Part shown: piece after piece, positions 26,464-36,489 of the stretch
Position numbering within the stretch: position 1 is the first letter of the stretch
Layout: every line of letters starts with the position of its first letter
Assembly: GCA_016873495.1 (NCBI GenBank)
Contig: VGXC01000012.1
Coordinates: 8,434 to 72,433 of the forward strand
Direction: 5' to 3'
Source of the DNA: Nitrospira sp.
GTDB taxonomy: Bacteria > Nitrospirota > Nitrospiria > Nitrospirales > Nitrospiraceae
Length of the DNA: 64,000 bases
The notes under the pieces: model-generated
Databases searched by the model: none
The model's input: only the letters and a program-made list of their open reading frames with translations
What the model was told of the DNA's origin: nothing
Translations under genes and position numbers: made by a program

Positions 26464-27213
26464 CTACATGAACTTCATGAACTTGTCTTTGGCCTCGTCC
26501 ATCACCTGCGCCGTGATCGTGGTGGCGCCGCGCTCCTTCGCCAGTCGCTCGATCTCGCGGCGGGCCATGGGGCGGATGAAGTCCGGGATGTTTTCCAGCC
26601 GTTTCTCCGCGTCGGCCGACCAGGTGACGCCGTTCGAGTCGTTCTTGGAATCGTCCATCACCTGCAGCGTGATGGTGGTTAGGCCGTGCTTGCGGGCATA
26701 GGCCTCGATGCTGCTCTGCACCATCGGCTTGACGAAGGAGGGGAGCCGATCCAGCTTCTCTTTCGCATCCGGGGTCCAGGTAAAGTCCGACGTGCCGGGC
26801 TGGCTGCTGGACGTCAACCCCATCTGCGCCACCATGGCGGAGAAGGGACAACCGGCCGCCTTCTCGCCTTCTTTCGCCGGCGTCTCAGCGCTCGCCGTGA
26901 CGCCCGCCGCAGATGCGGCCGGCTTGCCGGCTTGAATCTTGTCATTCAAATAGGCCGCCATCTGACCGGACCCGGCGAGGGCCTCGTCTTTGAGCGTGCC
27001 GCGGGTCATTTCAAAGGGTTGGGCCGCCTCGGTGCGGCCGCCCAGCTTGACGCCGAGCGAACTGACCATCTGCGTCTCGCCCGGGTTCGTCACCATCGAG
27101 AACTTGGCGCTGCACGAGGGGCAGGCGAAAAAAACGCCCAGCGACCCTTCCGCAGGCTTTTCCACCTTTTCGAAGGTCATGTAGGTTTCACAATTCAAAC
27201 AGACGAATTTCAT
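26464..27213 (-). CDS. zinc-ribbon protein with two PCP_red domains
   Basis: N-terminal CLNC...CPSC ribbon. Then WTPDAKEKLDRLPSFVKPMVQSSIEAYARKHG and WSADAEKRLENIPDFIRPMARREIERLAKERGATTITAQVMDEAK, which closely resemble the ChlB/BchB C-terminal domain. Confidence 0.8.
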   Translation of the reverse strand: MKFVCLNCETYMTFEKVEKPAEGSLGVFFACPSCSAKFSMVTNPGETQMVSSLGVKLGGRTEAAQPFEMTRGTLKDEALAGSGQMAAYLNDKIQAGKPAASAAGVTASAETPAKEGEKAAGCPFSAMVAQMGLTSSSQPGTSDFTWTPDAKEKLDRLPSFVKPMVQSSIEAYARKHGLTTITLQVMDDSKNDSNGVTWSADAEKRLENIPDFIRPMARREIERLAKERGATTITAQVMDEAKDKFMKFM

Positions 27214-27282
27214 ATGGAACTCCTTGGGGAAGTTGTCAGTATTCAGGTCTCGGCCTACTGAAGACTGATCACTGAGAACTGT

Positions 27283-28200
27283 CTACAACTTTTCCGCCAG
27301 CACTTTCTTATAGTCCAGCATCGCCTGGACCCGTTCCGCGATTTCCTGATAACGCTGGATAGTCGGGTACGTAGCATCCAACAGCGGCAGGCCCTTGTCG
27401 AAGGTCCGAGCCAGCGTCCGATCGAAGGGCACGCGGCCCAACAAGGGCACGTTCAACGCGTCGCACATGGCGTCCGTATCCCCCTCGAACAGTTCGTGCT
27501 CGACGCCGCAGGACGGGCACCGGAACCGGCTCATGTTCTCCACCATGCCCAGCACGTGGATCCCCATGTCCCTGGCATAGGTCACCGATTTCTGCACGAC
27601 GTCGGAGGCGACCTCGGAGGGCGTGGTCACGACAATCGCCCCGGCCAGGTCCGGGATGAATCCGGCGATGACCGGCGGCTTGTCCGCCGCGGCCCCAGGG
27701 GGCAAGTCGGTCAGCAGGTAGTCCAACTCACCCCATATCACATCCGCCAGGAACTCACGGATCACGTTCATTTCCATGAGCCCAAGCCAGACCGGGCTCA
27801 AGTCCATCGGCCCTTTCCAGCGCACGGGAGAGGCGGCCCCCAGGAAAAAATCCATGGAGGCGACTTTGACCCCTAGCGGGCCGACCGGCGGGATCGCCCC
27901 TTCCGGCGTGATGGTCAGCGCTTGCCCGTGCATGCCCAGCATGCGCGGCACGCAGGGCCCGTTCAGGTCCACATCCAACAGCCCCACTTTGTGCCCCAGA
28001 CGGGCCAGCGCGAGCGCTAGGTTTACCGTGGTCATGCTCTTGCCGACCCCGCCCTTGCCGCTCATGACTACCAGCTTGTGTCGGATGCCGGCCATGCGGG
28101 CCTGCACCTGCCTCATCTGCGCGGTAATCTGCTGCACGACCTTGGCGTCGTCGCTGTATTGGAGCTTGCCGAGGATCGTTTTGAGGTCATGACCGGCCAT
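27283..28200 (-). CDS. apbC: Mrp/NBP35/ApbC family Fe-S cluster carrier ATPase
   Basis: Start MAGHDLKTILG. Deviant Walker A SGKGGVGKS and the ENMS.F.CPSCG motif. Confidence 0.9.
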   Translation of the reverse strand: MAGHDLKTILGKLQYSDDAKVVQQITAQMRQVQARMAGIRHKLVVMSGKGGVGKSMTTVNLALALARLGHKVGLLDVDLNGPCVPRMLGMHGQALTITPEGAIPPVGPLGVKVASMDFFLGAASPVRWKGPMDLSPVWLGLMEMNVIREFLADVIWGELDYLLTDLPPGAAADKPPVIAGFIPDLAGAIVVTTPSEVASDVVQKSVTYARDMGIHVLGMVENMSRFRCPSCGVEHELFEGDTDAMCDALNVPLLGRVPFDRTLARTFDKGLPLLDATYPTIQRYQEIAERVQAMLDYKKVLAEKL

Positions 28201-28357
28201 AAAACACTCCCCAGAGGTTGTCGGCCGTCGGTAACGGCCCGCTCTTAATCGTCGTAGGTCAGCTGCTGATTGCTTCTTAGCATCGGCACGGTAACACAGG
28301 GGTTTCGAGGGAGTCAAACCAGCTCCGCGGGATCAGCCATCGGCTGTCAGCTCTTGC

Positions 28358-30202
28358 TTAAATCGAGTATTGAAACGTCGGCTTGCCCCCGATCGCCTGC
28401 GCCAAGACGCCTCGTTTCTTGAGTTCTTCGATGATCCGGCGCGCGGCCTCATCGAAATCCTTCGGCCCGGCGAATTGAAGGTCCGTGTCCGAGGGGGGCT
28501 CCTCGGCCACCTTGCTCATGTGCACGGTGATGACCGGAGCCGGATGCACCAAGGTACGGATCGCTTGGGCGGCTTGCGCATAGGCCGACCCGAACGCCTT
28601 GGTGGTCGAGACCACGATCAGACCCGTGTCGATGAGCAGCCTGGCCACTTCGCCATACCGGCGCGCCATCTCATCCGTCCCGGCCAGGTCCGATCCGGCC
28701 AGGTCCGCATCCAGCCCGCGTCGGAGGTTTTCCCCCTCCAACAGATAGGCATGGCGGCCCTCGGCCACCAGCACCGACTCCAGCTTGCGGGCCAGGAAAG
28801 ACTTGCCGGTCTGCGGCGCTCCGGTGAGGAGCACTACCGCCGCCCGATGGCCGTAATGCTGCGCCCGTTGTTCCGCTCCGACTTCCCCTTTGACCCAGGC
28901 AAAATCTCTCCGCCGGGCTTCATCGCGCAGAAACTCCTGCTCGTCATGCACCAGCTCGGTGATAATGCCCCCGCCGGCGATATCGTACTCGTCTACGAGC
29001 ACAAAGCGACCGGTGGACTCGAACGCATGATACGGATCGAAGGCGATCGGAGATTTCGTCCGCAGGGTCAATTCCGCTACCTGGTTTCGTTCGACGACGT
29101 TCCCTCCCTGCCGTTGGTCCAAATCCGCCGTGTCGACGATCCGGTTGATCGTTGCCACTTCACAGTCCACCTCGTGGGTGGCCAGACGAAGCTGGTACTT
29201 CCGGCCGCGCTCCAACGGACGCCGGCCCAGCCAGAACAGATTGACCCGAAAGGAGGTGGACACGAGCGGGATGGACTCCTGGCGGGACGCAATCTCGCCG
29301 CGCTCGATGAAAATCTGCTCGTCCAGCGTGATTCCGACGGACTGTCCCGCTGTGGCCTCGGTCGGAGAGGGTTCGACGTTGAAGGCTTCTACGGATTTGA
29401 CGTTGGCCGACTTGTTGGACGGGGAAAAGACCAGCCGGTCGCCGACTTTCAAACGGCCGGCGGTCAGCCGGCCGGCGATGATCCGCCGCGCGTCGAACTT
29501 GTAGACGTCCTGGACCGGGAACCGGAGCGGTTGCTCGCCGCGGGCGGTTTCCTTGCGAAACGCCTCCAGCGTCTCAAGCACGGTCTGGCCCTGGTACCAG
29601 GCCATGTGGGTGCTGCGGGAGGCAATGTTGTCGCCGAGCTTCGCGCTCACCGGGATGACGCGCTCCGGCACCACCTTCAACTGGCCCAGGAAGTCCCGGT
29701 ATTCCTTTTCGATGCCGTCGAACACATCCTGGCGGTACCCGACCAGGTCCATCTTGTTCACCACCACCGCGACCTGCTTCACGCCCAGTAGCGACAGCAG
29801 ATATCCGTGCTTCTTGGACTGCTCCTTCACGCCCTCCAGCGCATCGATCAGCAGCAGCGCCGCCTCCGCGCGGGCGGCGCCGGAGATCATGTTCTTGAGG
29901 AACTCCTTGTGGCCGGGCGCGTCGATGATGATGTATTGGCGCCCCTTCCACGTGAAAAACGTGCGGGCCGTGTCGATCGTAATGCCTTGCTCTTGCTCTT
30001 CCAGGAACGCGTCGAAGAGGAAGGCGTATTCGAACTCCTTGCCCTGCTGCCGGCAGATGGCCTGCACCTTCTCCAGCTTCCCGTCGGGGAGCGAGCCGGT
30101 GTCGGCGTAGAGTCGCCCCAGCAGCGTGGATTTTCCATGATCCACATGCCCGACAATCACAGTGTTCAGGTTTTCCGTCGGTCTGGCTTGTACGGTCGCC
30201 AT
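28358..30202 (-). CDS. cysN: sulfate adenylyltransferase subunit 1 (CysN) fused to an APS-kinase-like domain
   Basis: Start MATVQARP. GTPase motifs [14 protein letters not shown] and NKMD. The C-terminal roughly 185 aa carry a P-loop (GAPQTGKS) and [10 protein letters not shown], but the rest of the CysC motif set is divergent. Confidence 0.93.
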
Positions 30203-30333
30203 TTGGTTATCCAATGAATTCTGTCGCGTGGCGCGACACCTTTTCATGGGCCAGGGAAATCATTGCCTGCTGGTACGACTGGCGCGCCACTGCCGGTTGG
30301 CCGACAAACCCGGCATTTTCGATCGCGCCACGG

Positions 30334-31131
30334 TTACATGTACCCGTCTTTGCGTAGGAGTTCCATCCCGCGCCCTTCATCCTGCGCCCGTCCAGACCGC
30401 TCGGCCACCGTGGTATGGCGCAGCTCTTCGATGATGGCATCCACGGTCTTGGCCGTGGACTTGATCGGGGTGGTGCAGGGGGCGCAGCCCAGACTGCGGT
30501 ACCTCGTGCCGTCGCCCCTATCGAGATAGAGGTCGATAAAGGGGATATTCTCGTACTTGATGTATTCCCAGATGTTGATCTCCGTCCAGTCCAGGAGCGG
30601 GTGAATCCGGATGTGCGTGCCCGGCGGGAAGGCGGTCTTAAACTGATCCCAGAGCTCCGGCGGCTGATCCCGGAAGTCCCAGTCCCCGTGCTTGTCGCGC
30701 GGCGAGAAGTATCGCTCCTTGGCCCTGGTACCCTCTTCATCGGCCCGCACGCCCAAAATGATGCCCGTGTAGCCCTTTTGCTCGATGAGCTGTTTCAGCC
30801 CGTTGGTCTTGAGCGCCGTGCAGCAGGTCACACGGCCCATCGTATGGTTCATGCCGGCCGCGAGGGCCTCCTTGTTCTGACCGACGACCAGATTCAACCG
30901 CCATTCACGGGCCAGCCGGTCCCGGTACTCGATCATCGCGGGAATCTTGTAACTGGTGTCCACATGGAGCAGCGGGAACGGCACGTGGCCGAAGAAGGCC
31001 TTGCGGGCCAGCCACAAGAGCACGGTCGAGTCCTTCCCCATGGACCAGAGCATGGCCAGGTTGTCGAAGTGCTTGTAGGCTTCGCGAAAAATGTAGACGC
31101 TTTGGTCTTCGAGCTGGCGGAGATGCTTCAT
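30334..31131 (-). CDS. cysD: sulfate adenylyltransferase subunit 2
   Basis: 265 aa, [13 protein letters not shown]...CCTALKT. 4-nt overlap with the upstream gene. Confidence 0.95.
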
Positions 31132-32195
31132 GCGCGCTCCTCGGAGCTGATGGCCGATAGCTGATGGCTTCCTGACAATTCCTCCAGCTTCCGTGCCGCC
31201 GCTCCGCTGTCCAGCGTCTGCTGCGCCAGCGGAACACCGGCTGTAATGGATTGGGCCTTGCCGGCGGCATAGAGCAGCATGGCCGCGTTCATGACCACCC
31301 AGTCTCGCTGCCCACCGCGCACCTGATTGTGCAGGATGCGTCGCAACAAGGTCGCCTCCTGATCCAGTTGCCCCGGAGGAAACCCGGACATGGCCTGAAA
31401 GCTCCCCGGCGGAAGGCCACAGTCCTTGGGCGTCAGCGTCAAGGGCACAATGCGTTCGTCCCGCACTTCGAGCAGCCTGGTTACCGACGCAATGGACAGT
31501 TCCGGCTCGCCCTCCGACCCACGGACGATCAATGCCCGCTTGCTGCCCAGCATAAGGAGCGCCTCGGCGGTCTTTTCGAAGTAGGGGGGATGGCTCAGGC
31601 CGATCACTTGCGAGGCAGCCCGGGCCGGGTTCAGCATCTTGGCCACCGGATGGAACAAACTCCGCACCCCCAACTCGCGCCGCAGATCCAGAAACCGGGC
31701 GACCGGCGGATGGTAGAGGGCGATATCCAGATAGACCAATCCTTTTGCCGTCAGTTCTTCGGCCGCCTGCTTGGGCGGCAGGTCGGTCGGAAGGCCGAGC
31801 TGGGCCAGAATTTCGACGGTCCCGGGCCGTTCCGGAATGCCTTCATGCCCATGCATCAGGATAGAAGCCCCGGCGGCGGCAGCCACGATCGCCGCGCCTG
31901 CGGACACGTGAAAGGTATCCTGTTTCCCCGCATACGTCGGCAAATCCACCAGCGGCAGGTGACGCGGCACCGGGAGGGGCGGCACATACTCACGCACCGC
32001 CGAGGTGAAGGCCGCCAACTCCGTGATCGATTCCATCTTTACGCGCATGGCGAGGAGAAAAGCGCCGACCTGCACCGGAGTGGCCTGGCCCTCGACGAGC
32101 ATCCGCATCGCCTGTTTGGCCTCTTCCCAGGTCAGGTCCTTGGAGGCCTTCTGGCCCTTGCCGATTTTGGCGATGCATTGCGAGAATTCCGTCAT
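31128..32195 (-). CDS. anthranilate phosphoribosyltransferase-like (glycosyltransferase family 3) protein with divergent active-site motifs
   Basis: 355 aa, colinear with TrpD ([31 protein letters not shown]...). GTGGD is replaced by [12 protein letters not shown] by MHGH, and GLDE by SEGEPE. Confidence 0.8.
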
Positions 32196-32220: not shown

Positions 32221-32634
32221 TTAAAACGTCAACACTTGGTCCGCCGGCGCGACCGCTTCCCTCCAGAAGGCCTCGGCCTTCTGCACCTCGTCCAGCTCGG
32301 GCAACAACTGATCCACGGTGATCTCGAAGAATTCGATCGTCTCGCGGCAGATCGAGAGCTTCACGTCCCCCGCCTCTTTGACCTCACGCAACACCGCCGG
32401 CAAATCGAGCCGTTTCCGCTCCTGCAGCATGTTGCGCACCTTCGACTCGCGCCCCTTATAGGCATCCGAAAACGTCAACTGCTTCAGCCTCTCGTGCGTC
32501 AATTTGGACGCCGCCTCGTCTCGAAACAAGACGTTCACGTGCATGCCGGACGCAGCGGCGACACGAATTAATTCGCAGGCCTGCAAGAGATTGTTGTAGC
32601 TTCCCCCGGTCACGATCACGGCCAGCTTCTTCAT
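32221..32634 (-). CDS. DsrE/DsrF-like (DrsE_2-type) protein
   Basis: 137 aa, MKKLAVIVTGGSYNNLLQACELIRVAAASGMHVNVLF... with a single conserved-looking Cys in KLSICRETIEFF. Confidence 0.65.
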   Translation of the reverse strand: MKKLAVIVTGGSYNNLLQACELIRVAAASGMHVNVLFRDEAASKLTHERLKQLTFSDAYKGRESKVRNMLQERKRLDLPAVLREVKEAGDVKLSICRETIEFFEITVDQLLPELDEVQKAEAFWREAVAPADQVLTF

Positions 32635-32715: not shown

Positions 32716-33435
32716 CTATTTGTGCAAGCCACACTCGGTTTTGGCGAAGTTCTGCCACCGGCCCGAGCGCGGATCGGCGCCAGGCGCGACCGGAGCCGTG
32801 CAATGGGTGCAGCCGATGCTGGGGTAGCCGCGGTCATGCAACGCGTTGTAGGGCACCTCGTAGACCTTAATGTAGGCCCAGACCTCCGCCACCGTCCAAC
32901 GAGCCAGCGGGTTGAACTTGACCAATTGAAATTTCTTGTCCCATTCCACCAAGCCCGCATTGGCGCGTGTCGGCGCCTGATCGCGCCGGATGCCGGTGAT
33001 CCAGGCCTCGTAACCGCCCAACACCCGGGCCAACGGCTCGACCTTGCGCAGGTGGCAACATTGGTCCGGCTGTTTGGCCCAGAGCTCCGCTCCATATTGC
33101 GCCGCTTGCTGTTCGGGCGTCAGCAGGGACTTCACCTGGATCACTTGCGCGGGGCGCAAGCCATACTTGGCGACAATCCGGTCCCGCACCTCTTGGGTCT
33201 CCGGGAATAAAAAGTCCGTATCCAGGTAGAATAGAGGCGCACCTGGATCCAGCCGGTGGATCATGTCCACCAGCACCACGTCTTCCGCCCCGAAGCTGCA
33301 GGCCAACACGATATGCCCGCGATACCGCTCTAGGGCATAGGCGAGCACCTCTTGCGGCTGCTTGGACTCGAAGGAGTCGCTCTGCGCCTTCAAATCCTCA
33401 TCGGAGGGTCTGGTCCGGACCGCCTGATCCGCCAC
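32716..33435 (-). CDS. cysH: adenylylsulfate (APS) reductase, Fe-S type assimilatory CysH
   Basis: 239 aa with the CC pair (DQCCHLRK), CxxC (GCTHCT) and C-terminal ECGLH. This is the signature set of [4Fe-4S] APS reductases rather than PAPS reductases. Confidence 0.92.
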   Translation of the reverse strand: MADQAVRTRPSDEDLKAQSDSFESKQPQEVLAYALERYRGHIVLACSFGAEDVVLVDMIHRLDPGAPLFYLDTDFLFPETQEVRDRIVAKYGLRPAQVIQVKSLLTPEQQAAQYGAELWAKQPDQCCHLRKVEPLARVLGGYEAWITGIRRDQAPTRANAGLVEWDKKFQLVKFNPLARWTVAEVWAYIKVYEVPYNALHDRGYPSIGCTHCTAPVAPGADPRSGRWQNFAKTECGLHK

Positions 33436-33444
33436 GGTTTCCCT

Positions 33445-35955
33445 CTAGCCTTCGACCTTTTCCACCAGCACTTTGAAATGGGCTGCTTCCGGCTCCAACG
33501 GCTCTTCCAATAGAATCTTGTGTCCGTCGTTGCGCAGACTCATCGGCACGTTTTTGATCGGCTCGCCTGCGTCCAACCAGACTTCCAGCCGCTCGCCCAC
33601 ATCCATCATCTCCAGCTTCAATTTGGTCTTCACATAGTTGAGCGGACAGGCCACGCCGCGGAGATCGTACACCGATGCGTCCGGCCCTGCCGCAACGGAC
33701 TGAGCCGGGGCCGAGGGCTTGGCCTCTGCCGCCTGCTTCGCGGACACCTCGGCCTCGCCGGCTTGCGCCAGCTTCAAGTCCTTGCCGATCTGCTCGGTTG
33801 CCGCCCGGCACACTTCCACGAAGCCGCGGGCGAAGGCGATCTTAGCCTGCGCGAATTCCGGACTGCTATCCTTCTGACCCAAGTCACCCGCCTGAGCGCC
33901 CAGGTTCTTATACCGGGCCAGCACGAGGCTGCGCTGGCCCAGCCGCCGCTCGAACTCGATAAAAGTTTCGGCATCGGTGGCAGGATCCAGCCCCTCGGTG
34001 ACCAGCAACGCCTTGGCCGCGGCCAGCACGGCCCGGTAGGCTTTGTTGACCGAGACGGAATACTGGTGCTTCTCGGCCAGCAACTTGGCCTGATAGAGCT
34101 CCTGCTCCGCCTCGAGGATCCGATCGCCGATCATCTCCAGAGCGCCGCCGGCGCATTCGCCCGGTCCCAGATCCTCCAGGATAAATTCCTCTTCCCCTTC
34201 CCAGTCGTAATAAAAGGTCGGGTCCTCTTCGAAGGTCGGCACGATCGTATAGGGAATCAGCTCTTCTTTCAGCGCGACCTTGCCCGCCCGCGTGATGAAA
34301 GAGGACAGGCTCTCGCCCTGACGCCGGTCCCGGCGATAGACCGAGAGCAGATGCGTGATGGCGGCCGGCACGCTCTTGGCCGGCAGTTTCACGGTCATCT
34401 GACCGATCTTGGCCGTCCCGTTCACCTGTCCGCCCAAGTGCAATTCATAGTGGGGCGCCACATGGTCGCCCAGACGCTTGCCCACGCCGTGCAAACCGAT
34501 CGTCGCGATGTGATGCTGGGCGCAGGAATTATGGCAGCCGCTGATCTTGACGCTGACCTCCTTCAAGTCTTCGGGCACACGACCGGGTGGAAAGACCTCC
34601 GCCATAGCCCGCGCCAATCCCTTGGATGAGGTAATGCCCAGTCCGCAGGTGTCGGTGCCAGGACAAGCGATGATGTCTTCCACCAACTCTGCGCCCGGAT
34701 CGCCCAATCCCTGTGAAACGAGGTCTTCGTAAAGGGCCGCCAGCCTTGATTCCGGCACCCACCGAAGCACCAGGTTCTGGTTGATCGTGGTCCGCAAGTT
34801 CCCATTGGAATAATCCTCCGCCAGGTCCGCGACGAACTGCATCTGCCCGGCGGTGAGGTCGCCCATCTGGAGCTTGATCGCGGCCACCGCATAGCCCGGC
34901 TGTTTCTGGGGAACCACGTTGGTCCGTTTCCACATCTGATAGGGTGTTTCAGCTGACCCAAGGCCGTGGCCCGATGATCCGTTGCCATTGCCGTTTCCAT
35001 TGCCCGCTGAAGCGGATGCCGGAGTCGGCATGATGAGGGGCACCGGCTCGTCCGCATACGGGAGTAGCTTGATGGGGGCATGATCGGGCCTGGCATGGCC
35101 TAGACTGACGTAGGCCTCTTCCCACCGCCGCTTGAATTCCTCAAAGCCCAGCTTGTCGATCACGAACTTCATCCGGGCCTTGTTGCGGTTCTTGCGATTG
35201 CCCAGCGTATCGAACACTTTGATGACCGCCTCGACCGTGGGGATCAATTCGTTCATCGGGACGAACTCCCGCAACAGCTGCGCGATGCGCGGGGCCGAGC
35301 CGAGCCCGCCCCCGACGACCATGCGGAATCCGATGGCGCCGTCCTCGCGCTTGGCCGCCAGCAGTCCCACGTCGTGGATCGGCGTCAGGGCGCAGTCGTG
35401 CCGGCAGCCGGAGAAGGCGATCTTGAATTTCCGCGGCAGGCTCTGGTTAAGCGGGTTCCGCAGGAGATGCAAGGCCACGGTCTTGGCATAGGGCGTCACG
35501 TCGAACACTTCACCCTGGCAGACGCCGGCCAAGTGACAGGCCGTCACGTTGCGCACCGTGTTCGCGCAGGCTTCCCTGGTAGTCAGGCCGACTTCGGCCA
35601 GCCCGCGCATGACCGTGCCGACATCCTTCAGTTCGACGAAGTGGAGCTGGATGTCCTGGCGAGTCGTGACGTGGCCGACGCCGGTCCCATATCGGTCGGC
35701 TAGTTCGGCCACCCGACGCAGTTGATTGGCATTCAGCCCGCCGAAGGGAATCTTGATCCGCACCATTTGCACGCCGGGCTGGCGCTGCCCGTAAATGCCA
35801 TGTTGCAACCGAAAGGGCTTGAACAGGTCGTTGGACACATCCCCGGCCTGCAGCCGTTGGGCTTCGCCTTCGAAGGTTTCGATCTCTTCGAGAATGTCAG
35901 GCGGAATCGGGGCGGTCTGTATGACCACCGGCTGTATAGTCCGTGGAGTGCTCAT
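33445..35955 (-). CDS. sir: ferredoxin-type assimilatory sulfite reductase fused to a C-terminal all-alpha module and a TusA-like domain
   Basis: 836 aa. Siroheme/[4Fe-4S] ligands are CPGTDTCGLG and SGCHNSCAQH. There is a (GN)4 insertion at aa 318-325. The last 74 aa are VYDLRGVACPLNYVKTKLKLEMM... (TusA-like). Confidence 0.9.
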   Translation of the reverse strand: MSTPRTIQPVVIQTAPIPPDILEEIETFEGEAQRLQAGDVSNDLFKPFRLQHGIYGQRQPGVQMVRIKIPFGGLNANQLRRVAELADRYGTGVGHVTTRQDIQLHFVELKDVGTVMRGLAEVGLTTREACANTVRNVTACHLAGVCQGEVFDVTPYAKTVALHLLRNPLNQSLPRKFKIAFSGCRHDCALTPIHDVGLLAAKREDGAIGFRMVVGGGLGSAPRIAQLLREFVPMNELIPTVEAVIKVFDTLGNRKNRNKARMKFVIDKLGFEEFKRRWEEAYVSLGHARPDHAPIKLLPYADEPVPLIMPTPASASAGNGNGNGNGSSGHGLGSAETPYQMWKRTNVVPQKQPGYAVAAIKLQMGDLTAGQMQFVADLAEDYSNGNLRTTINQNLVLRWVPESRLAALYEDLVSQGLGDPGAELVEDIIACPGTDTCGLGITSSKGLARAMAEVFPPGRVPEDLKEVSVKISGCHNSCAQHHIATIGLHGVGKRLGDHVAPHYELHLGGQVNGTAKIGQMTVKLPAKSVPAAITHLLSVYRRDRRQGESLSSFITRAGKVALKEELIPYTIVPTFEEDPTFYYDWEGEEEFILEDLGPGECAGGALEMIGDRILEAEQELYQAKLLAEKHQYSVSVNKAYRAVLAAAKALLVTEGLDPATDAETFIEFERRLGQRSLVLARYKNLGAQAGDLGQKDSSPEFAQAKIAFARGFVEVCRAATEQIGKDLKLAQAGEAEVSAKQAAEAKPSAPAQSVAAGPDASVYDLRGVACPLNYVKTKLKLEMMDVGERLEVWLDAGEPIKNVPMSLRNDGHKILLEEPLEPEAAHFKVLVEKVEG

Positions 35956-36036: not shown

Positions 36037-36489
36037 TCAAATGTGGTACATGAGGGTCCGCTCGCGATCGAGCTGCTGGTGCCGTTCTGCCAGCTCGCGA
36101 AGCGTCACGCCATTCAACACACCCAGCTCCGCCTGACGGACCCGTTCCCAGACGTCGGCTAAGAGCAGGTCCGGCCTCGATGGCCCCGTGATGTGACGCC
36201 CCGCCCCCCGATGGCTGCTCGGGGCCGAAAGGGTGCCGTCCAACGCCTCCACGATATCCGCCAGTGAAATTTCTTCCGGCAGTTTGCCTAAAAGATAGCC
36301 TCCCTGAGCGCCGCGTAGGCTATCGACCAGTCCGGCGTTCTTCATCGCGTTCAGGACTTGCTCGAGAAAACGGAGCGGGATGGCCTGACGCCGGGCGATC
36401 GCCTTTGCCTGAATAGGCGAGGTGCCGTCATTTAAGGCCAAATCCAGCGCCGCCAGCACTCCATATGTAGCCTTCAAGGATATTTTCAT
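36037..36489 (-). CDS. Rrf2 family transcriptional regulator (Cys-free, CymR-like)
   Basis: 150 aa, MKISLKATYGVLAALDLAL...IPLRFLEQVLNAMKNAGLV. Contains no cysteine, so it cannot bind Fe-S as IscR or NsrR do. Confidence 0.9.
   Translation of the reverse strand: MKISLKATYGVLAALDLALNDGTSPIQAKAIARRQAIPLRFLEQVLNAMKNAGLVDSLRGAQGGYLLGKLPEEISLADIVEALDGTLSAPSSHRGAGRHITGPSRPDLLLADVWERVRQAELGVLNGVTLRELAERHQQLDRERTLMYHI

What the first reader, a model, noticed from the sequence alone, without database searches (positions are those of the whole stretch)
33445..34190. Sulfite reductase with a roughly 240-aa C-terminal extension ending in a TusA-like domain
The siroheme/[4Fe-4S] core is complete by about aa 590 (CPGTDTCGLG and SGCHNSCAQH). 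Characterised ferredoxin-type Sir/NirA enzymes end about there.

This ORF continues with three further parts:
- an all-alpha module (aa about 600-725: GALEMIGDRILEAEQELYQAKLLAEKHQ...FAQAKIAFARGFVEVCR);
- an Ala/Glu/Pro linker;
- a final 74 aa, VYDLRGVACPLNYVKTKLKLEMMDVGERLEVWLDAGEPIKNVP....

The last part fits the TusA/SirA pattern D-x-R-G-x-x-C-P-x-P, with the carrier Cys (Cys770) retained and CPLN in place of CPxP.
Basis: partly seen in the sequence, partly recalled or inferred. Interest (0 to 1): 0.65.

Follow-up and report, generated by a model that had tools for sequence, protein, structure and literature searches.

The report
Sulfite reductase with tethered TusA domain
A Nitrospira enzyme that makes sulfide for cysteine synthesis carries a small sulfur-carrier (TusA) domain on a flexible tether; the fusion is real and widespread but unstudied, and it suggests the reduced sulfur is passed on protein-bound rather than released free.

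Summary
ORF 33445-35955 (- strand, 836 aa) has three parts:
- a complete ferredoxin-type siroheme sulfite reductase (Sir) core, aa 1-572;
- a HEPN-fold helical bundle without the RNase motif, aa 605-727;
- after a disordered Ala/Glu/Pro linker, a TusA domain, aa 761-836 (Pfam PF01206, 54 bits).

It is not an assembly artefact. More than 120 Nitrospira clusters, at least 598 species genomes and about 96 of the 150 best 50%-identity clusters show the same fusion. It also occurs in Nitrospinota, Poribacteria, Spirochaetota and Candidatus Lambdaproteobacteria.

Cys770 is invariant (49/49).

The gene lies in a sulfate-assimilation operon (Rrf2, Sir, APS reductase, DsrE-like, TrpD-like, CysD, CysNC). 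In other lineages the fusion sits beside DsrEFH-like genes, or beside a ThiS-like/MetY/ThiF/JAB cluster.

Best reading: the tethered TusA takes reduced sulfur from Sir as a Cys770 persulfide, with Cys601 as partner thiol, and relays it to carrier proteins. The mechanism is inferred, not shown.

Iyer et al. (2006) saw free-standing SirA/TusA genes in such neighbourhoods. I found no paper on this fusion. I rate it a new variant of a known kind, of moderate interest.

The parts
34240..35955 (-). Sir core, aa 1-572: a ferredoxin-type assimilatory siroheme/[4Fe-4S] sulfite reductase. Cluster Cys are 431, 437, 474 and 478. Anion-site residues are R99, R135, K176 and K178. A disordered low-complexity insert lies at aa 293-333.
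   Evidence: Pfam NIR_SIR_ferr and NIR_SIR, two of each. PDB sequence matches to NiR, M. tuberculosis NirA, maize SiR and CysI. Best fold match 1zj8, M. tuberculosis NirA, TM 0.75. Invariant residues. K-x-K site, against K-x-N in NiR.
34174..34239 (-). aa 573-594 (PTFEEDPTFYYDWEGEEEFILE): the conserved start of the extension, which packs on the core. Y582 is nearly invariant. D584 is invariant in all the alignments made, F591 in two of them (A2, A4).
   Evidence: pLDDT 83-93 for aa 571-590 in the full-length model. Conservation.
34144..34173 (-). Flexible hinge, aa 595-604 (DLGPGECAGG), carrying invariant Cys601 (codon 34153-34155) in the family motif G-x-G-E-C-[AGS]-[GA].
   Evidence: pLDDT below 50 for aa 595-604. 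C601 is 49/49 and E600 48/49. Codon checked.
33775..34143 (-). HEPN-fold helical bundle, aa 605-727. It has no conserved R-x4-6-H RNase motif and is presumably a scaffold, spacer or docking module.
   Evidence: Pfam HEPN, 26.2 bits. AF2 pLDDT about 90-98. Foldseek hits 2hsb (TM 0.75), 1ufb, 1o3u, 1wol and 2q00. Motif test.
33676..33774 (-). Disordered Ala/Glu/Pro/Lys-rich tether, aa 728-760. Its length varies among homologues, roughly 15-50 aa.
   Evidence: pLDDT below 50 for aa 728-758. Variable, gap-rich alignment columns.
33445..33675 (-). TusA sulfur-carrier domain, aa 761-836, plus the stop codon. The carrier cysteine is Cys770 (codon 33646-33648). The subfamily signature is C-P-x-N-[YF]-V-[KR]-[TAV]-K-[LI] followed by D-x-G-x-P-x-x-N-V-P-x-S.
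   Evidence: Pfam TusA, 54.4 bits. PDB sequence hits 1jdq and 1je3. Fold matches 3lvj_C (TusA, TM 0.84), 3hz7 and 1dcj. Invariant C770, P771, N773, D795, G797, V803, S806 and G811.
36037..36489 (-). Rrf2-family regulator, 81 bp upstream. It is probably the first gene of the operon.
   Evidence: Pfam Rrf2. Present upstream in 61 of 69 Nitrospirales loci.
32716..33435 (-). CysH, an Fe-S type APS/PAPS reductase that supplies sulfite. It starts 9 bp after the Sir stop codon.
   Evidence: Pfam PAPS_reduct; NCBIfam PRK02090 and TIGR02055. Present in 67 of 69 loci. Gap sizes.
32221..32634 (-). DsrE-family small protein (137 aa) with conserved Cys20 and Cys96. It is a candidate acceptor or partner of the TusA domain. 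It is accessory, present in only 10 of 69 Nitrospirales loci.
   Evidence: Pfam DsrE and DrsE_2. Cysteine conservation in 10 orthologues. Frequency.
28358..32195 (-). The rest of the sulfate-activation operon: a TrpD/YbiB-like family-3 glycosyltransferase homologue (31128-32195), CysD (30334-31131) and CysN fused to an APS-kinase-like domain (28358-30247).
   Evidence: Pfam and NCBIfam. Conserved order in Nitrospirales loci.

Best explanation
**What it is (shown).** One conserved polypeptide has four elements:
- a ferredoxin-type assimilatory siroheme sulfite reductase;
- a short flexible hinge carrying the invariant Cys601;
- a non-catalytic HEPN-fold helical bundle;
- a disordered tether of about 30 residues, ending in a TusA sulfur-carrier domain with the invariant Cys770.

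It is encoded in the sulfate-assimilation operon of a Nitrospira.

**How it most likely works (inferred).**
1. APS reductase supplies sulfite, and the core reduces it at the siroheme.
2. The tethered TusA domain swings to the active-site exit and takes up the reduced sulfur as a persulfide on Cys770.
3. Cys601 is the partner or resolving thiol. One redox-neutral cycle is:
   - HS- opens a Cys601-Cys770 disulfide to give Cys770-SSH;
   - the persulfide is passed to an acceptor;
   - Cys601 re-forms the disulfide.
4. The sulfur goes to DsrE-type transferases or to adenylated ThiS-type carrier proteins, instead of, or as well as, diffusing away as free sulfide. In this role TusA stands in for the rhodanese domain that the neighbouring E1 enzymes lack.

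I put the identity and architecture at about 0.95. I put the product-capture relay at about 0.4.
For: **Architecture**
- Pfam, NCBIfam, PDB sequence matches, AF2 models and Foldseek all agree.

**Sulfite rather than nitrite**
- The anion site is K176-x-K178, as in M. tuberculosis NirA. Plant NiR has K-x-N there.
- The operon holds cysH, cysD and cysNC.
- A distant Nitrospirota locus has CysH, the fusion and ATP sulfurylase together.
- Another locus has a sulfate-type binding protein just downstream.

**Selection on the extension**
- The family has only six invariant cysteines. Four are cluster ligands; the other two are C601 and C770.
- Canonical TusA positions are kept.
- The fusion is retained across at least five phyla, while extension identity falls to about 30%.

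**Flexibility**
- The hinge (aa 595-604) and the tether (aa 728-758) have pLDDT below 50, between confident domains.

**Relay partners next to the fusion**
- A DsrE-like gene with conserved Cys lies in the operon here and in 10 of 69 Nitrospirales loci.
- L084 has a DsrH/DsrE/DsrH-like trio directly downstream of a homologue with two tandem TusA domains.
- L081 has a ThiS-like carrier (ending LGGG-TGR), a MetY-like enzyme, ThiF and JAB directly upstream of the fusion.
- L079 has a rhodanese-less MoeB/ThiF gene just downstream.

**Published precedent**
- Iyer, Burroughs and Aravind 2006 (PMC1779556) examined ThiS/JAB/E1 neighbourhoods that include sulfate-assimilation genes and sulfite reductase. 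They reported that the E1 lacks rhodanese and that a SirA (= TusA) gene is always present.
- They predicted that SirA takes the rhodanese role.
- They also noted ThiS fused to the C-terminus of sulfite reductase in some actinobacteria.
Against: - No experiment exists, and the direction of sulfur flow is not shown.
- Sulfide is S(-II) and a TusA persulfide carries S(0). Capture therefore needs either a disulfide partner or interception of a partly reduced intermediate. Neither is demonstrated for assimilatory enzymes, which are known to release sulfide without free intermediates (my knowledge of E. coli SiRHP).
- In the Nitrospira operon itself there is no ThiS, ThiF or JAB gene.
- The DsrE-like gene is present in only 10 of 69 loci.
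- Nitrospinota neighbours are unrelated housekeeping genes.
- No model coordinates or PAE were available, so the reach of Cys770 or Cys601 to the siroheme could not be measured.
- The Asn in place of the second Pro of CPxP departs from canonical TusA.
Confidence: 0.45

Rival explanations
1. Substrate-side role. The Cys770/Cys601 pair works upstream of the siroheme. One version has it resolve the S-sulfocysteine intermediate of the adjacent APS reductase, like a built-in thioredoxin. The other has it split thiosulfate, as a rhodanese or YeeD does. Either way, sulfite is released right at the Sir active site (substrate channelling).
For: - cysH starts 9 bp after the fusion gene and is adjacent in 67 of 69 Nitrospirales loci and in L071.
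- The Foldseek hits with the lowest E-values (4e-5 to 5e-4, but rmsd about 18 A) for the extension model are to YeeE-YeeD thiosulfate-uptake complex chains (8j4c, 8k1r).
- The best sequence matches are to TM0983 and YedF-type proteins rather than to TusA proper.
- The hinge motif E-C-[GA] loosely recalls the E-C-G-L-H tail of CysH. This is a three-residue resemblance only.
Against: - Nitrospinota, Poribacteria and other carriers have no cysH next to the fusion.
- TusA is not a thioredoxin fold.
- No YeeE-type transporter was seen in the operon.
- The neighbours found in other lineages (DsrE/H, ThiS/ThiF/JAB) are acceptors of reduced sulfur, not sources of sulfite.
Confidence: 0.2
2. No sulfur transfer. 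HEPN plus TusA is a structural or regulatory appendage. It might mediate dimerisation, dock ferredoxin or another partner, or act as a Cys601-Cys770 redox switch that gates the enzyme in an aerobic, nitrite-exposed cell.
For: - HEPN domains commonly dimerise (my knowledge).
- The conserved HEPN positions here are hydrophobic or structural (L650, L651, G655, F668).
- In Nitrospinota the gene has no sulfur-relay neighbours.
- Two invariant cysteines on mobile elements would also suit a thiol switch.
Against: - The full set of canonical TusA positions around the carrier cysteine is under strong constraint.
- DsrE-family or ThiS/ThiF genes are adjacent in several independent lineages.
- L084 has duplicated the TusA domain. 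That fits a carrier better than a switch.
Confidence: 0.15
3. Reverse or dissimilatory use. TusA delivers persulfide sulfur to the siroheme enzyme, which oxidises it to sulfite, as TusA-DsrEFH-DsrC feeds reverse DsrAB in sulfur oxidisers.
For: - L084, a 51%-identical homologue, lies between an AprB-like ferredoxin and a DsrEFH-like trio.
- TusA-to-DsrEFH relays are typical of sulfur oxidisers (my knowledge).
Against: - In this window the gene sits in a classical assimilatory operon with CysD, CysN and CysH under an Rrf2 regulator.
- The core is closest to assimilatory NirA/SiR enzymes, not to DsrAB.
- The AprB-like match is below its family cut-off (71 bits against 135), and no AprA was seen on the 4.6 kb contig.
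Confidence: 0.05
4. Artefact. Two genes were joined by a lost stop codon, a frameshift or a chimeric assembly.
For: Nothing supports this for the window. A few long-read assemblies show the opposite error, where the gene is split by frameshifts (L056, L061, L066, L081).
Against: - The same single-frame fusion is found in more than 120 close clusters, at least 598 species genomes and complete chromosomes.
- An identical protein was seen on 3 contigs.
- 96 of the 150 best distant cluster representatives join core and extension.
- No convincing free-standing HEPN-TusA gene was found.
Confidence: 0.01

Closest known systems
Mycobacterium tuberculosis NirA (SirA), a ferredoxin-dependent assimilatory sulfite reductase (PDB 1zj8)
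   Same: - It is the best fold match to the core (TM 0.75) and a strong sequence match.
- It has the same K-x-K anion site.
- Its gene is also linked to cysH (my knowledge).
- Cys130 here aligns with the NirA cysteine that I recall as Cys161 of the Tyr-Cys crosslink (the numbering is from memory).
   Different: NirA ends shortly after the core. It has no hinge cysteine, no HEPN domain and no TusA domain.
TusA / SirA-like sulfur carriers: E. coli TusA (3lvj, 1dcj), TM0983 (1jdq), YedF (1je3)
   Same: - Same fold (TM 0.80-0.84 to 3lvj_C, 3lvk_B and 1dcj).
- Pfam TusA above the gathering score.
- The carrier cysteine lies in D-x-x-G-x-x-C-P, and the D...[DN]-[IV]-P segment is conserved.
   Different: - It is covalently tethered to an enzyme instead of free-standing.
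- An invariant Asn replaces the second Pro of CPxP.
- It is below the cut-off for the YedF equivalog (35.8 bits against 79).
ThiS/MoaD-JAB-E1 sulfate-assimilation neighbourhoods with a SirA protein (Iyer, Burroughs and Aravind 2006, Table 1 row 4e), and the protein-thiocarboxylate methionine and cysteine routes (W. succinogenes HcyS/HcyF/HcyD/MetY/Sir; M. tuberculosis CysO/CysM)
   Same: - L081 reproduces this neighbourhood: ThiS-like, MetY-like, ThiF, JAB, CysD/N and Sir.
- The paper states that SirA is always present with rhodanese-less E1 enzymes. It also reports that a sulfur-carrier domain (ThiS) can be fused to the C-terminus of Sir.
- The routes themselves are summarised in the review read.
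   Different: - Here the SirA/TusA is fused to Sir through a HEPN spacer.
- The Nitrospira operon lacks ThiS, E1 and JAB.
- I could not check whether the W. succinogenes Sir carries this extension, because the paper is not held.
DsrAB-DsrC (dissimilatory sulfite reductase with its cysteine-bearing carrier), and the TusA-DsrEFH-DsrC relay
   Same: - The concept is the same: a siroheme sulfite reductase working with a protein thiol on a mobile element that takes the sulfur.
- DsrE/H-family genes lie next to the fusion in L084 and in some Nitrospira.
   Different: - The core is of the assimilatory type; DsrAB matches are weak.
- The carrier has the TusA fold, not the DsrC/TusE fold.
- The two cysteines are about 170 residues apart on different elements, not 10 apart on one C-terminal arm.
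- No DsrMKJOP genes were seen.
YeeE-YeeD (TsuA-TsuB) thiosulfate uptake complex (8j4c, 8k1r)
   Same: A TusA-like domain is physically coupled to the protein that handles the sulfur anion. Its chains give the lowest Foldseek E-values for the extension model (4e-5 to 5e-4), though the overall superposition is poor.
   Different: The partner there is a membrane transporter, not a reductase. The superposition is poor overall (rmsd about 18 A; the shared part is presumably the TusA fold), and no YeeE gene is in the operon.
Minimal HEPN domain proteins: AF_0298 (2hsb), TT1696 (1ufb), TM0613 (1o3u)
   Same: Helical-bundle fold (TM 0.71-0.75; 25% identity to 2hsb) and Pfam HEPN above the gathering score.
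   Different: No conserved R-x4-6-H motif. It is embedded between an oxidoreductase and a sulfur carrier rather than paired with a nucleotidyltransferase.

Membership tests
Assimilatory siroheme sulfite/nitrite reductase (NIR_SIR superfamily) | Two tandem NIR_SIR_ferr + NIR_SIR half-domains | tested here: met
   Pfam PF03460 and PF01077, two stretches each, E 4.5e-39 and 2.6e-59. Fold match to 1zj8, 3b0g, 5h8v and 1aop.
Assimilatory siroheme sulfite/nitrite reductase (NIR_SIR superfamily) | Four cysteine ligands of the [4Fe-4S] cluster and siroheme bridge (C-x5-C ... C-x3-C) | tested here: met
   C431, C437, C474 and C478 are present and invariant in 49 of 49.
Assimilatory siroheme sulfite/nitrite reductase (NIR_SIR superfamily) | Basic anion-binding residues; sulfite-type Lys-x-Lys rather than the nitrite-type Lys-x-Asn | tested here: met
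   R99, R135, K176 and K178 are invariant. LPRKFKIA aligns with M. tuberculosis NirA LPRKYKTA, against tobacco NiR LPRKWNVC; the N226K mutant has K.
Assimilatory siroheme sulfite/nitrite reductase (NIR_SIR superfamily) | Siroheme binding, six-electron sulfite reduction, ferredoxin as donor | not testable with these tools
   This needs biochemistry. All NCBIfam equivalog scores are below their cut-offs (best PRK09567, 297 bits against 523), so no equivalog assignment is possible.
TusA / SirA-like sulfur carrier (PF01206) | Profile match above the curated threshold, and the two-layer alpha/beta fold | tested here: met
   54.4 bits against 28.6. TM 0.84 to 3lvj_C, 0.82 to 3hz7 and 0.80 to 1dcj.
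TusA / SirA-like sulfur carrier (PF01206) | Conserved carrier cysteine at the N-terminus of helix 1 (D-x-x-G-x-x-C-P) | tested here: met
   D764-L-R-G-V-A-C770-P771. C770 and P771 are invariant in the 49-sequence alignments; P771 drops to nearly invariant in the two alignments that include fragments.
TusA / SirA-like sulfur carrier (PF01206) | Second proline of the C-P-x-P motif | tested here: not met
   Asn773 is there instead, invariant in 49 of 49. This is a subfamily signature, C-P-x-N-[YF]-V-[KR].
TusA / SirA-like sulfur carrier (PF01206) | Carries a persulfide and transfers it to a partner | not testable with these tools
   This needs mass spectrometry and transfer assays.
HEPN domain (PF05168) | Helical-bundle fold and profile match | tested here: met
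   26.2 bits against 22. Foldseek 2hsb TM 0.75, rmsd 2.9 A; also 1ufb, 1o3u, 1wol and 2q00.
HEPN domain (PF05168), RNase-type | Conserved R-x4-6-H catalytic motif | tested here: not met
   Absent from the query. It is found in only 12 of 49 homologues, at scattered and non-aligned positions.
DsrAB-DsrC type sulfite reduction | DsrC/TusE-fold carrier with two cysteines about 10 residues apart on a C-terminal arm; DsrA/DsrB-type core | tested here: not met
   The carrier has the TusA fold. The cysteines are C601 and C770, on different elements. DsrA/B matches are weak (TIGR02064 and TIGR02066 at 37-80 bits against cut-offs above 340; Foldseek TM 0.40-0.47, target-normalised).
ThiS/E1/JAB protein-thiocarboxylate sulfur-assimilation neighbourhood (Iyer et al. 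2006, row 4e) | ThiS/MoaD-like carrier, rhodanese-less E1, JAB protease, SirA and sulfate-assimilation genes clustered together | tested here: not met
   For this window and the Nitrospirales loci, tblastn with ThiF, JAB and PLP-enzyme queries finds nothing. The feature is met in L081 and partly met in L079. The rest of the Nitrospira genome could not be searched.

The most novel reading that the evidence does not exclude
An assimilatory sulfite reductase that does not simply release free sulfide. It hands the reduced sulfur in cis to its own tethered carrier cysteine. Cys770 holds the persulfide and hinge Cys601 is the resolving partner, in a redox-neutral disulfide/persulfide cycle. This would be an assimilatory counterpart of the DsrAB-DsrC principle. 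It would link sulfate assimilation directly to persulfide and thiocarboxylate trafficking (DsrE-type proteins, ThiS-type carriers) in aerobic nitrite oxidisers and several other phyla.
Probability: 0.3. Interest if true: 0.75.

Novelty: new variant of a known kind. Interest (0 to 1): 0.55.

Why it matters
Textbook assimilatory sulfate reduction ends with free sulfide diffusing to cysteine synthase. This fusion is kept across Nitrospirota, Nitrospinota, Poribacteria, Spirochaetota and others, and it has two invariant cysteines on mobile elements. That argues that in these organisms the last step is wired to a protein-bound sulfur relay.

If so, several things would follow.
- It would explain how aerobic organisms whose key enzymes are sulfide-sensitive, such as the globally important nitrite oxidisers Nitrospira and Nitrospina, avoid free sulfide.
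- It would give the long-predicted 'SirA replaces rhodanese' role (Iyer et al. 2006) a physical basis.
- It would provide a one-polypeptide system in which sulfur hand-off from a siroheme enzyme can be tested directly.

There is also a practical annotation point. NCBI names many of these proteins only 'sulfurtransferase TusA family protein' or 'HEPN domain-containing protein'. Such names hide the sulfite reductase in pathway reconstructions.

Tried and rejected
- **Artefact or lost stop codon.** Rejected on conservation.
- **Free-standing HEPN-TusA genes.** These would show the module is an independent unit. The short hits start in mid-domain, at non-ATG starts or at contig ends. The 'short' genes on long contigs are frameshift splits in long-read assemblies. 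None was convincing.
- **HEPN as an RNase.** Rejected, because there is no conserved R-x4-6-H motif.
- **Nitrite reductase instead of sulfite reductase.** Rejected on the K-x-K site and the operon context.
- **Measuring the Cys770 or Cys601 distance to the siroheme.** The structure tool returns no coordinates or PAE. Only flexibility and linker length can be argued.
- **Diverse full-length sequences for the alignment behind the full-length structure model.** The third homologue search, a profile of 49 diverse sequences, again listed almost only Nitrospira. The core alignment is therefore shallow, 51-94% identity.
- **ThiF, JAB or PLP-enzyme genes near the fusion in Nitrospira.** None found.
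- **Nitrospinota neighbourhoods.** These show lineage synteny with housekeeping genes and are uninformative.
- **Literature.** Five searches aimed at the fusion itself found no description of a Sir-HEPN-TusA fusion, and two further searches on thiocarboxylate pathways did not turn one up either. The TusA review by Tanabe, Leimkuhler and Dahl (2019) and the Wolinella paper (PMC3089676) are not held. A mention there cannot be excluded.
- **Taxon names for distant clusters.** Most have none.

Full report
**1. The observation**

The - strand ORF 33445-35955 encodes 836 aa. Pfam gives these hits:
- the two NIR_SIR_ferr/NIR_SIR repeats of siroheme sulfite/nitrite reductases;
- a TusA domain at aa 763-833 (54.4 bits, gathering score 28.6);
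- a HEPN hit at aa 612-660 (26.2 bits, gathering score 22).

Characterised enzymes stop soon after the core. E. coli CysI aligns to query aa 560, at residue 558 of 570. Maize SiR aligns to query aa 566, at residue 573 of 583. The extension therefore spans about aa 573-836.

**2. Anatomy**

An AlphaFold2 model of aa 578-836, built from 57 sequences, has mean pLDDT 83. It shows a confident helical bundle, a disordered segment and a confident alpha/beta domain. Foldseek against the PDB gives:
- for the bundle, minimal HEPN proteins: 2hsb (TM 0.75, rmsd 2.9 A, 25% identity), 1ufb, 1o3u, 1wol and 2q00;
- for the last domain, TusA: 3lvj_C (TM 0.84), 3hz7, 1dcj and the YeeD part of 8j4c.

The full-length model has pLDDT 78 and pTM 0.66.
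- Residues 571-590 sit on the core (pLDDT 83-93).
- Residues 595-604 and 728-758 fall below 50.

The best structural match of the full-length model is the M. tuberculosis sulfite reductase NirA (1zj8, TM 0.75). Coordinates are not returned, so distances to the siroheme pocket could not be measured.

**3. Conservation**

I aligned 49 full-length homologues. Whole-protein identity to the query is 30-71%; extension identity falls to about 30%. The invariant positions include:
- the four cluster cysteines;
- the anion-site residues R99, R135, K176 and K178;
- in the extension: D584, Cys601, Cys770-Pro771, Asn773, D795, G797, V803, S806 and G811.

Cys601 and Cys770 are the only invariant cysteines apart from the cluster ligands. 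Cys601 lies in a G-x-G-E-C-[AGS]-[GA] motif within the low-confidence hinge.

The HEPN part keeps only hydrophobic or structural positions. It has no conserved R-x4-6-H motif: none in the query, and 12 of 49 homologues with one at scattered positions. It is a scaffold, not an RNase.

The TusA part keeps the canonical D-x-x-G-x-x-C-P and D...N-V-P pattern. An invariant Asn stands where canonical TusA has the second Pro.

**4. Not an artefact, and widespread**
- More than 120 clusters at 77-93% identity, all 817-848 aa and all with TusA, come from Nitrospira and Nitrospiraceae. Cultured or enriched strains are among the carriers.
The best 80 cover Nitrospirales, Nitrospinota and Poribacteria.
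- A search of 1.84 billion representatives with aa 596-836 found 336 clusters at E <= 1e-10.
- Of the best 150, 96 join Sir core sequence to the extension. The rest look like fragments.
- Further names are Candidatus Lambdaproteobacteria and Spirochaetota.
- In all Nitrospirales loci, the tblastn matches to core and extension abut in one frame.
- Database names vary: 'sulfite reductase (ferredoxin)', 'sulfurtransferase TusA family protein' and 'HEPN domain-containing protein'.

**5. Sulfite, not nitrite**

LPRK(176)FK(178)IA aligns with M. tuberculosis NirA LPRKYKTA. Tobacco nitrite reductase has LPRKWNVC, and its N226K mutant restores the Lys. The gene order on the - strand, with short gaps, is as follows.

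| Gene | Gap to the previous gene |
|---|---|
| Rrf2 regulator | first gene |
| the fusion (Sir-HEPN-TusA) | 81 bp |
| Fe-S type APS reductase CysH | 9 bp |
| DsrE-like protein | 81 bp |
| TrpD/YbiB-like protein | 25 bp |
| CysD | 4 bp overlap |
| CysN-APS-kinase-like | 86 bp |
| ApbC/Mrp | 40 bp |
| protein with two PCP_red domains | 69 bp |

Among 69 Nitrospirales loci, many of them truncated, the counts are: CysH 67, TrpD-like 62, Rrf2 61, CysD 60, CysNC 56, PCP_red 28, ApbC 22 and DsrE-like 10.

**6. Clues to what the TusA domain does**

The clues come from neighbours in other lineages.
- The DsrE-like protein in this operon keeps Cys20 and Cys96 in all ten orthologues.
- L084 carries a 51%-identical homologue of 899 aa with two tandem TusA domains. 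It is preceded by an AprB-like ferredoxin and followed by DsrH-like, DsrE-like and DsrH-like genes.
- L081 is a frameshift-ridden long-read contig. Its order is Rrf2, a CysK-like enzyme, CysD, CysN, a ThiS-like carrier ending LGGG-TGR, a MetY-like enzyme, ThiF, JAB, and then the fusion.
- L079 (Poribacteria) has a ThrC-like enzyme and a rhodanese-less MoeB/ThiF after the fusion.
- L071 has CysH, the fusion and ATP sulfurylase together.
- L085 has a sulfate-type binding protein downstream.
- Nitrospinota neighbours are housekeeping genes.

**7. What is already known**

Iyer, Burroughs and Aravind 2006 (PMC1779556) described neighbourhoods that combine ThiS/MoaD, JAB and E1 with sulfate-assimilation genes, including sulfite reductase and O-acetylhomoserine sulfhydrylase.
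- They noted that the E1 lacks rhodanese.
- They noted that a SirA (= TusA) protein is always present, and predicted that it plays the rhodanese role.
- They noted that ThiS is fused to the C-terminus of sulfite reductase in some actinobacteria.

The thiocarboxylate routes to methionine (W. succinogenes) and cysteine (M. tuberculosis) are experimentally established (cited). From memory of Krishnamoorthy and Begley 2011, bisulfide made by Sir attacks the adenylated carrier. That paper is not held.

Seven literature searches, five of them aimed at the fusion itself, found no description of a Sir-HEPN-TusA fusion. The Nitrospina genome paper simply lists 'Sir'.

**8. Mechanism**

*Shown:* the architecture, the invariance of Cys601 and Cys770, the flexibility of the hinge and the tether, the assimilatory context, and the recurrent adjacency to DsrE-family or ThiS/E1/JAB genes.

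*Inferred:* the tethered TusA collects the reduced sulfur at the Sir exit as a Cys770 persulfide. Cys601 acts as the partner thiol. A redox-neutral cycle is chemically possible:
1. HS- opens a C601-C770 disulfide;
2. the persulfide attacks an acceptor, such as an acyl-adenylate or a DsrE cysteine;
3. Cys601 resolves the adduct and regenerates the disulfide.

This mirrors the persulfide and resolving-cysteine logic of ThiI and of rhodanese-E1 enzymes (my knowledge).

*Weak points:*
- no ThiS or E1 gene in the Nitrospira operon;
- DsrE-like in only 10 of 69 loci;
- the direction of transfer is untested;
- no geometry is available.

*Rivals:* substrate-side channelling from CysH or thiosulfate; a purely structural or redox-switch role; reverse (oxidative) use, as L084's neighbours might hint; an assembly artefact.

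**9. Verdict**

This is a real, conserved and widespread variant of assimilatory sulfite reductase with an in-cis sulfur-carrier domain. It is visible in databases and foreshadowed by the 2006 neighbourhood analysis. As far as I could find, it is uncharacterised as a fusion. I rate it a new variant of a known kind, with interest 0.55.

Noticed in passing
window 31128-32195 (-): A TrpD/YbiB-like family-3 glycosyltransferase homologue (TIGR01245 trpD, 228 bits; it also matches the YbiB-type models PRK09071 and PRK08136). It sits inside the cys operon between cysH/dsrE-like and cysD, overlapping cysD by 4 bp. It is present in 62 of 69 Nitrospirales loci. A role in sulfate assimilation is not obvious.
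   Followed up: partly
window 26464-28317 (-): An ApbC/Mrp (NUBPL-type) Fe-S carrier ATPase and a 249-aa protein with two PCP_red (PF08369) domains follow cysNC, with gaps of 40 and 69 bp. The pair recurs downstream of cysNC in many Nitrospira loci (ApbC 22, PCP_red 28 of 69, many loci truncated). They may belong to the same operon. The function of the PCP_red protein is unknown.
   Followed up: partly
L084 503-3202 and flanks: A 51%-identical homologue (899 aa) carries two tandem TusA domains, both with CPFN. It is flanked by an AprB-like ferredoxin (71 bits, below its cut-off) and by a trio of DsrH-like, DsrE-like and DsrH-like genes. This could be a different, possibly dissimilatory or oxidative, use of the same enzyme type.
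   Followed up: partly
L081 4380-4600: A ThiS/HcyS-like carrier gene is broken by frameshifts in a long-read contig. Reconstructed, it ends LGGG-TGR, that is, with a short extension after the Gly-Gly. As I recall, W. succinogenes HcyS-Ala has such an extension, trimmed by its JAMM protease. A JAB gene lies two genes downstream.
   Followed up: partly
window 34979-35004 (aa about 318-326 of the ORF): A short tandem DNA repeat (period 12, 2.2 copies) encodes GNGNGNGNG. It lies inside a disordered insert of about 40 aa (aa 293-333, pLDDT below 50) between the two halves of the Sir core. It is probably a length-variable linker.
   Followed up: no
window, aa 55 and 130 of the ORF (codons 35791-35793 and 35566-35568): Cys130 (REAC-ANTVRN) aligns with the 'EAC' cysteine of M. 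tuberculosis NirA. From memory, that cysteine is Cys161 of the Tyr69-Cys161 crosslink beside the siroheme. Tyr55 is invariant, but Cys130 is present in only 12 of 49 fused homologues; most have Gly. The Nitrospira clade may share the NirA-type crosslink.
   Followed up: partly
window 28358-30247 and 32716-33435 (-): CysN is fused to an APS-kinase-like domain (PF01583, 63 bits), while CysH just reaches the score of the Fe-S APS-reductase subfamily (TIGR02055, 235.4 bits against a cut-off of 235.3). If CysH uses APS directly, the kinase domain may be inactive or may serve another PAPS need.
   Followed up: no
L056, L061, L066, L081: In several long-read metagenome assemblies the fusion gene is split into two or three called genes by frameshifts. 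This produces apparent 'stand-alone' HEPN-TusA or TusA proteins in protein databases, some named 'HEPN domain-containing protein' without 'partial'.
   Followed up: partly
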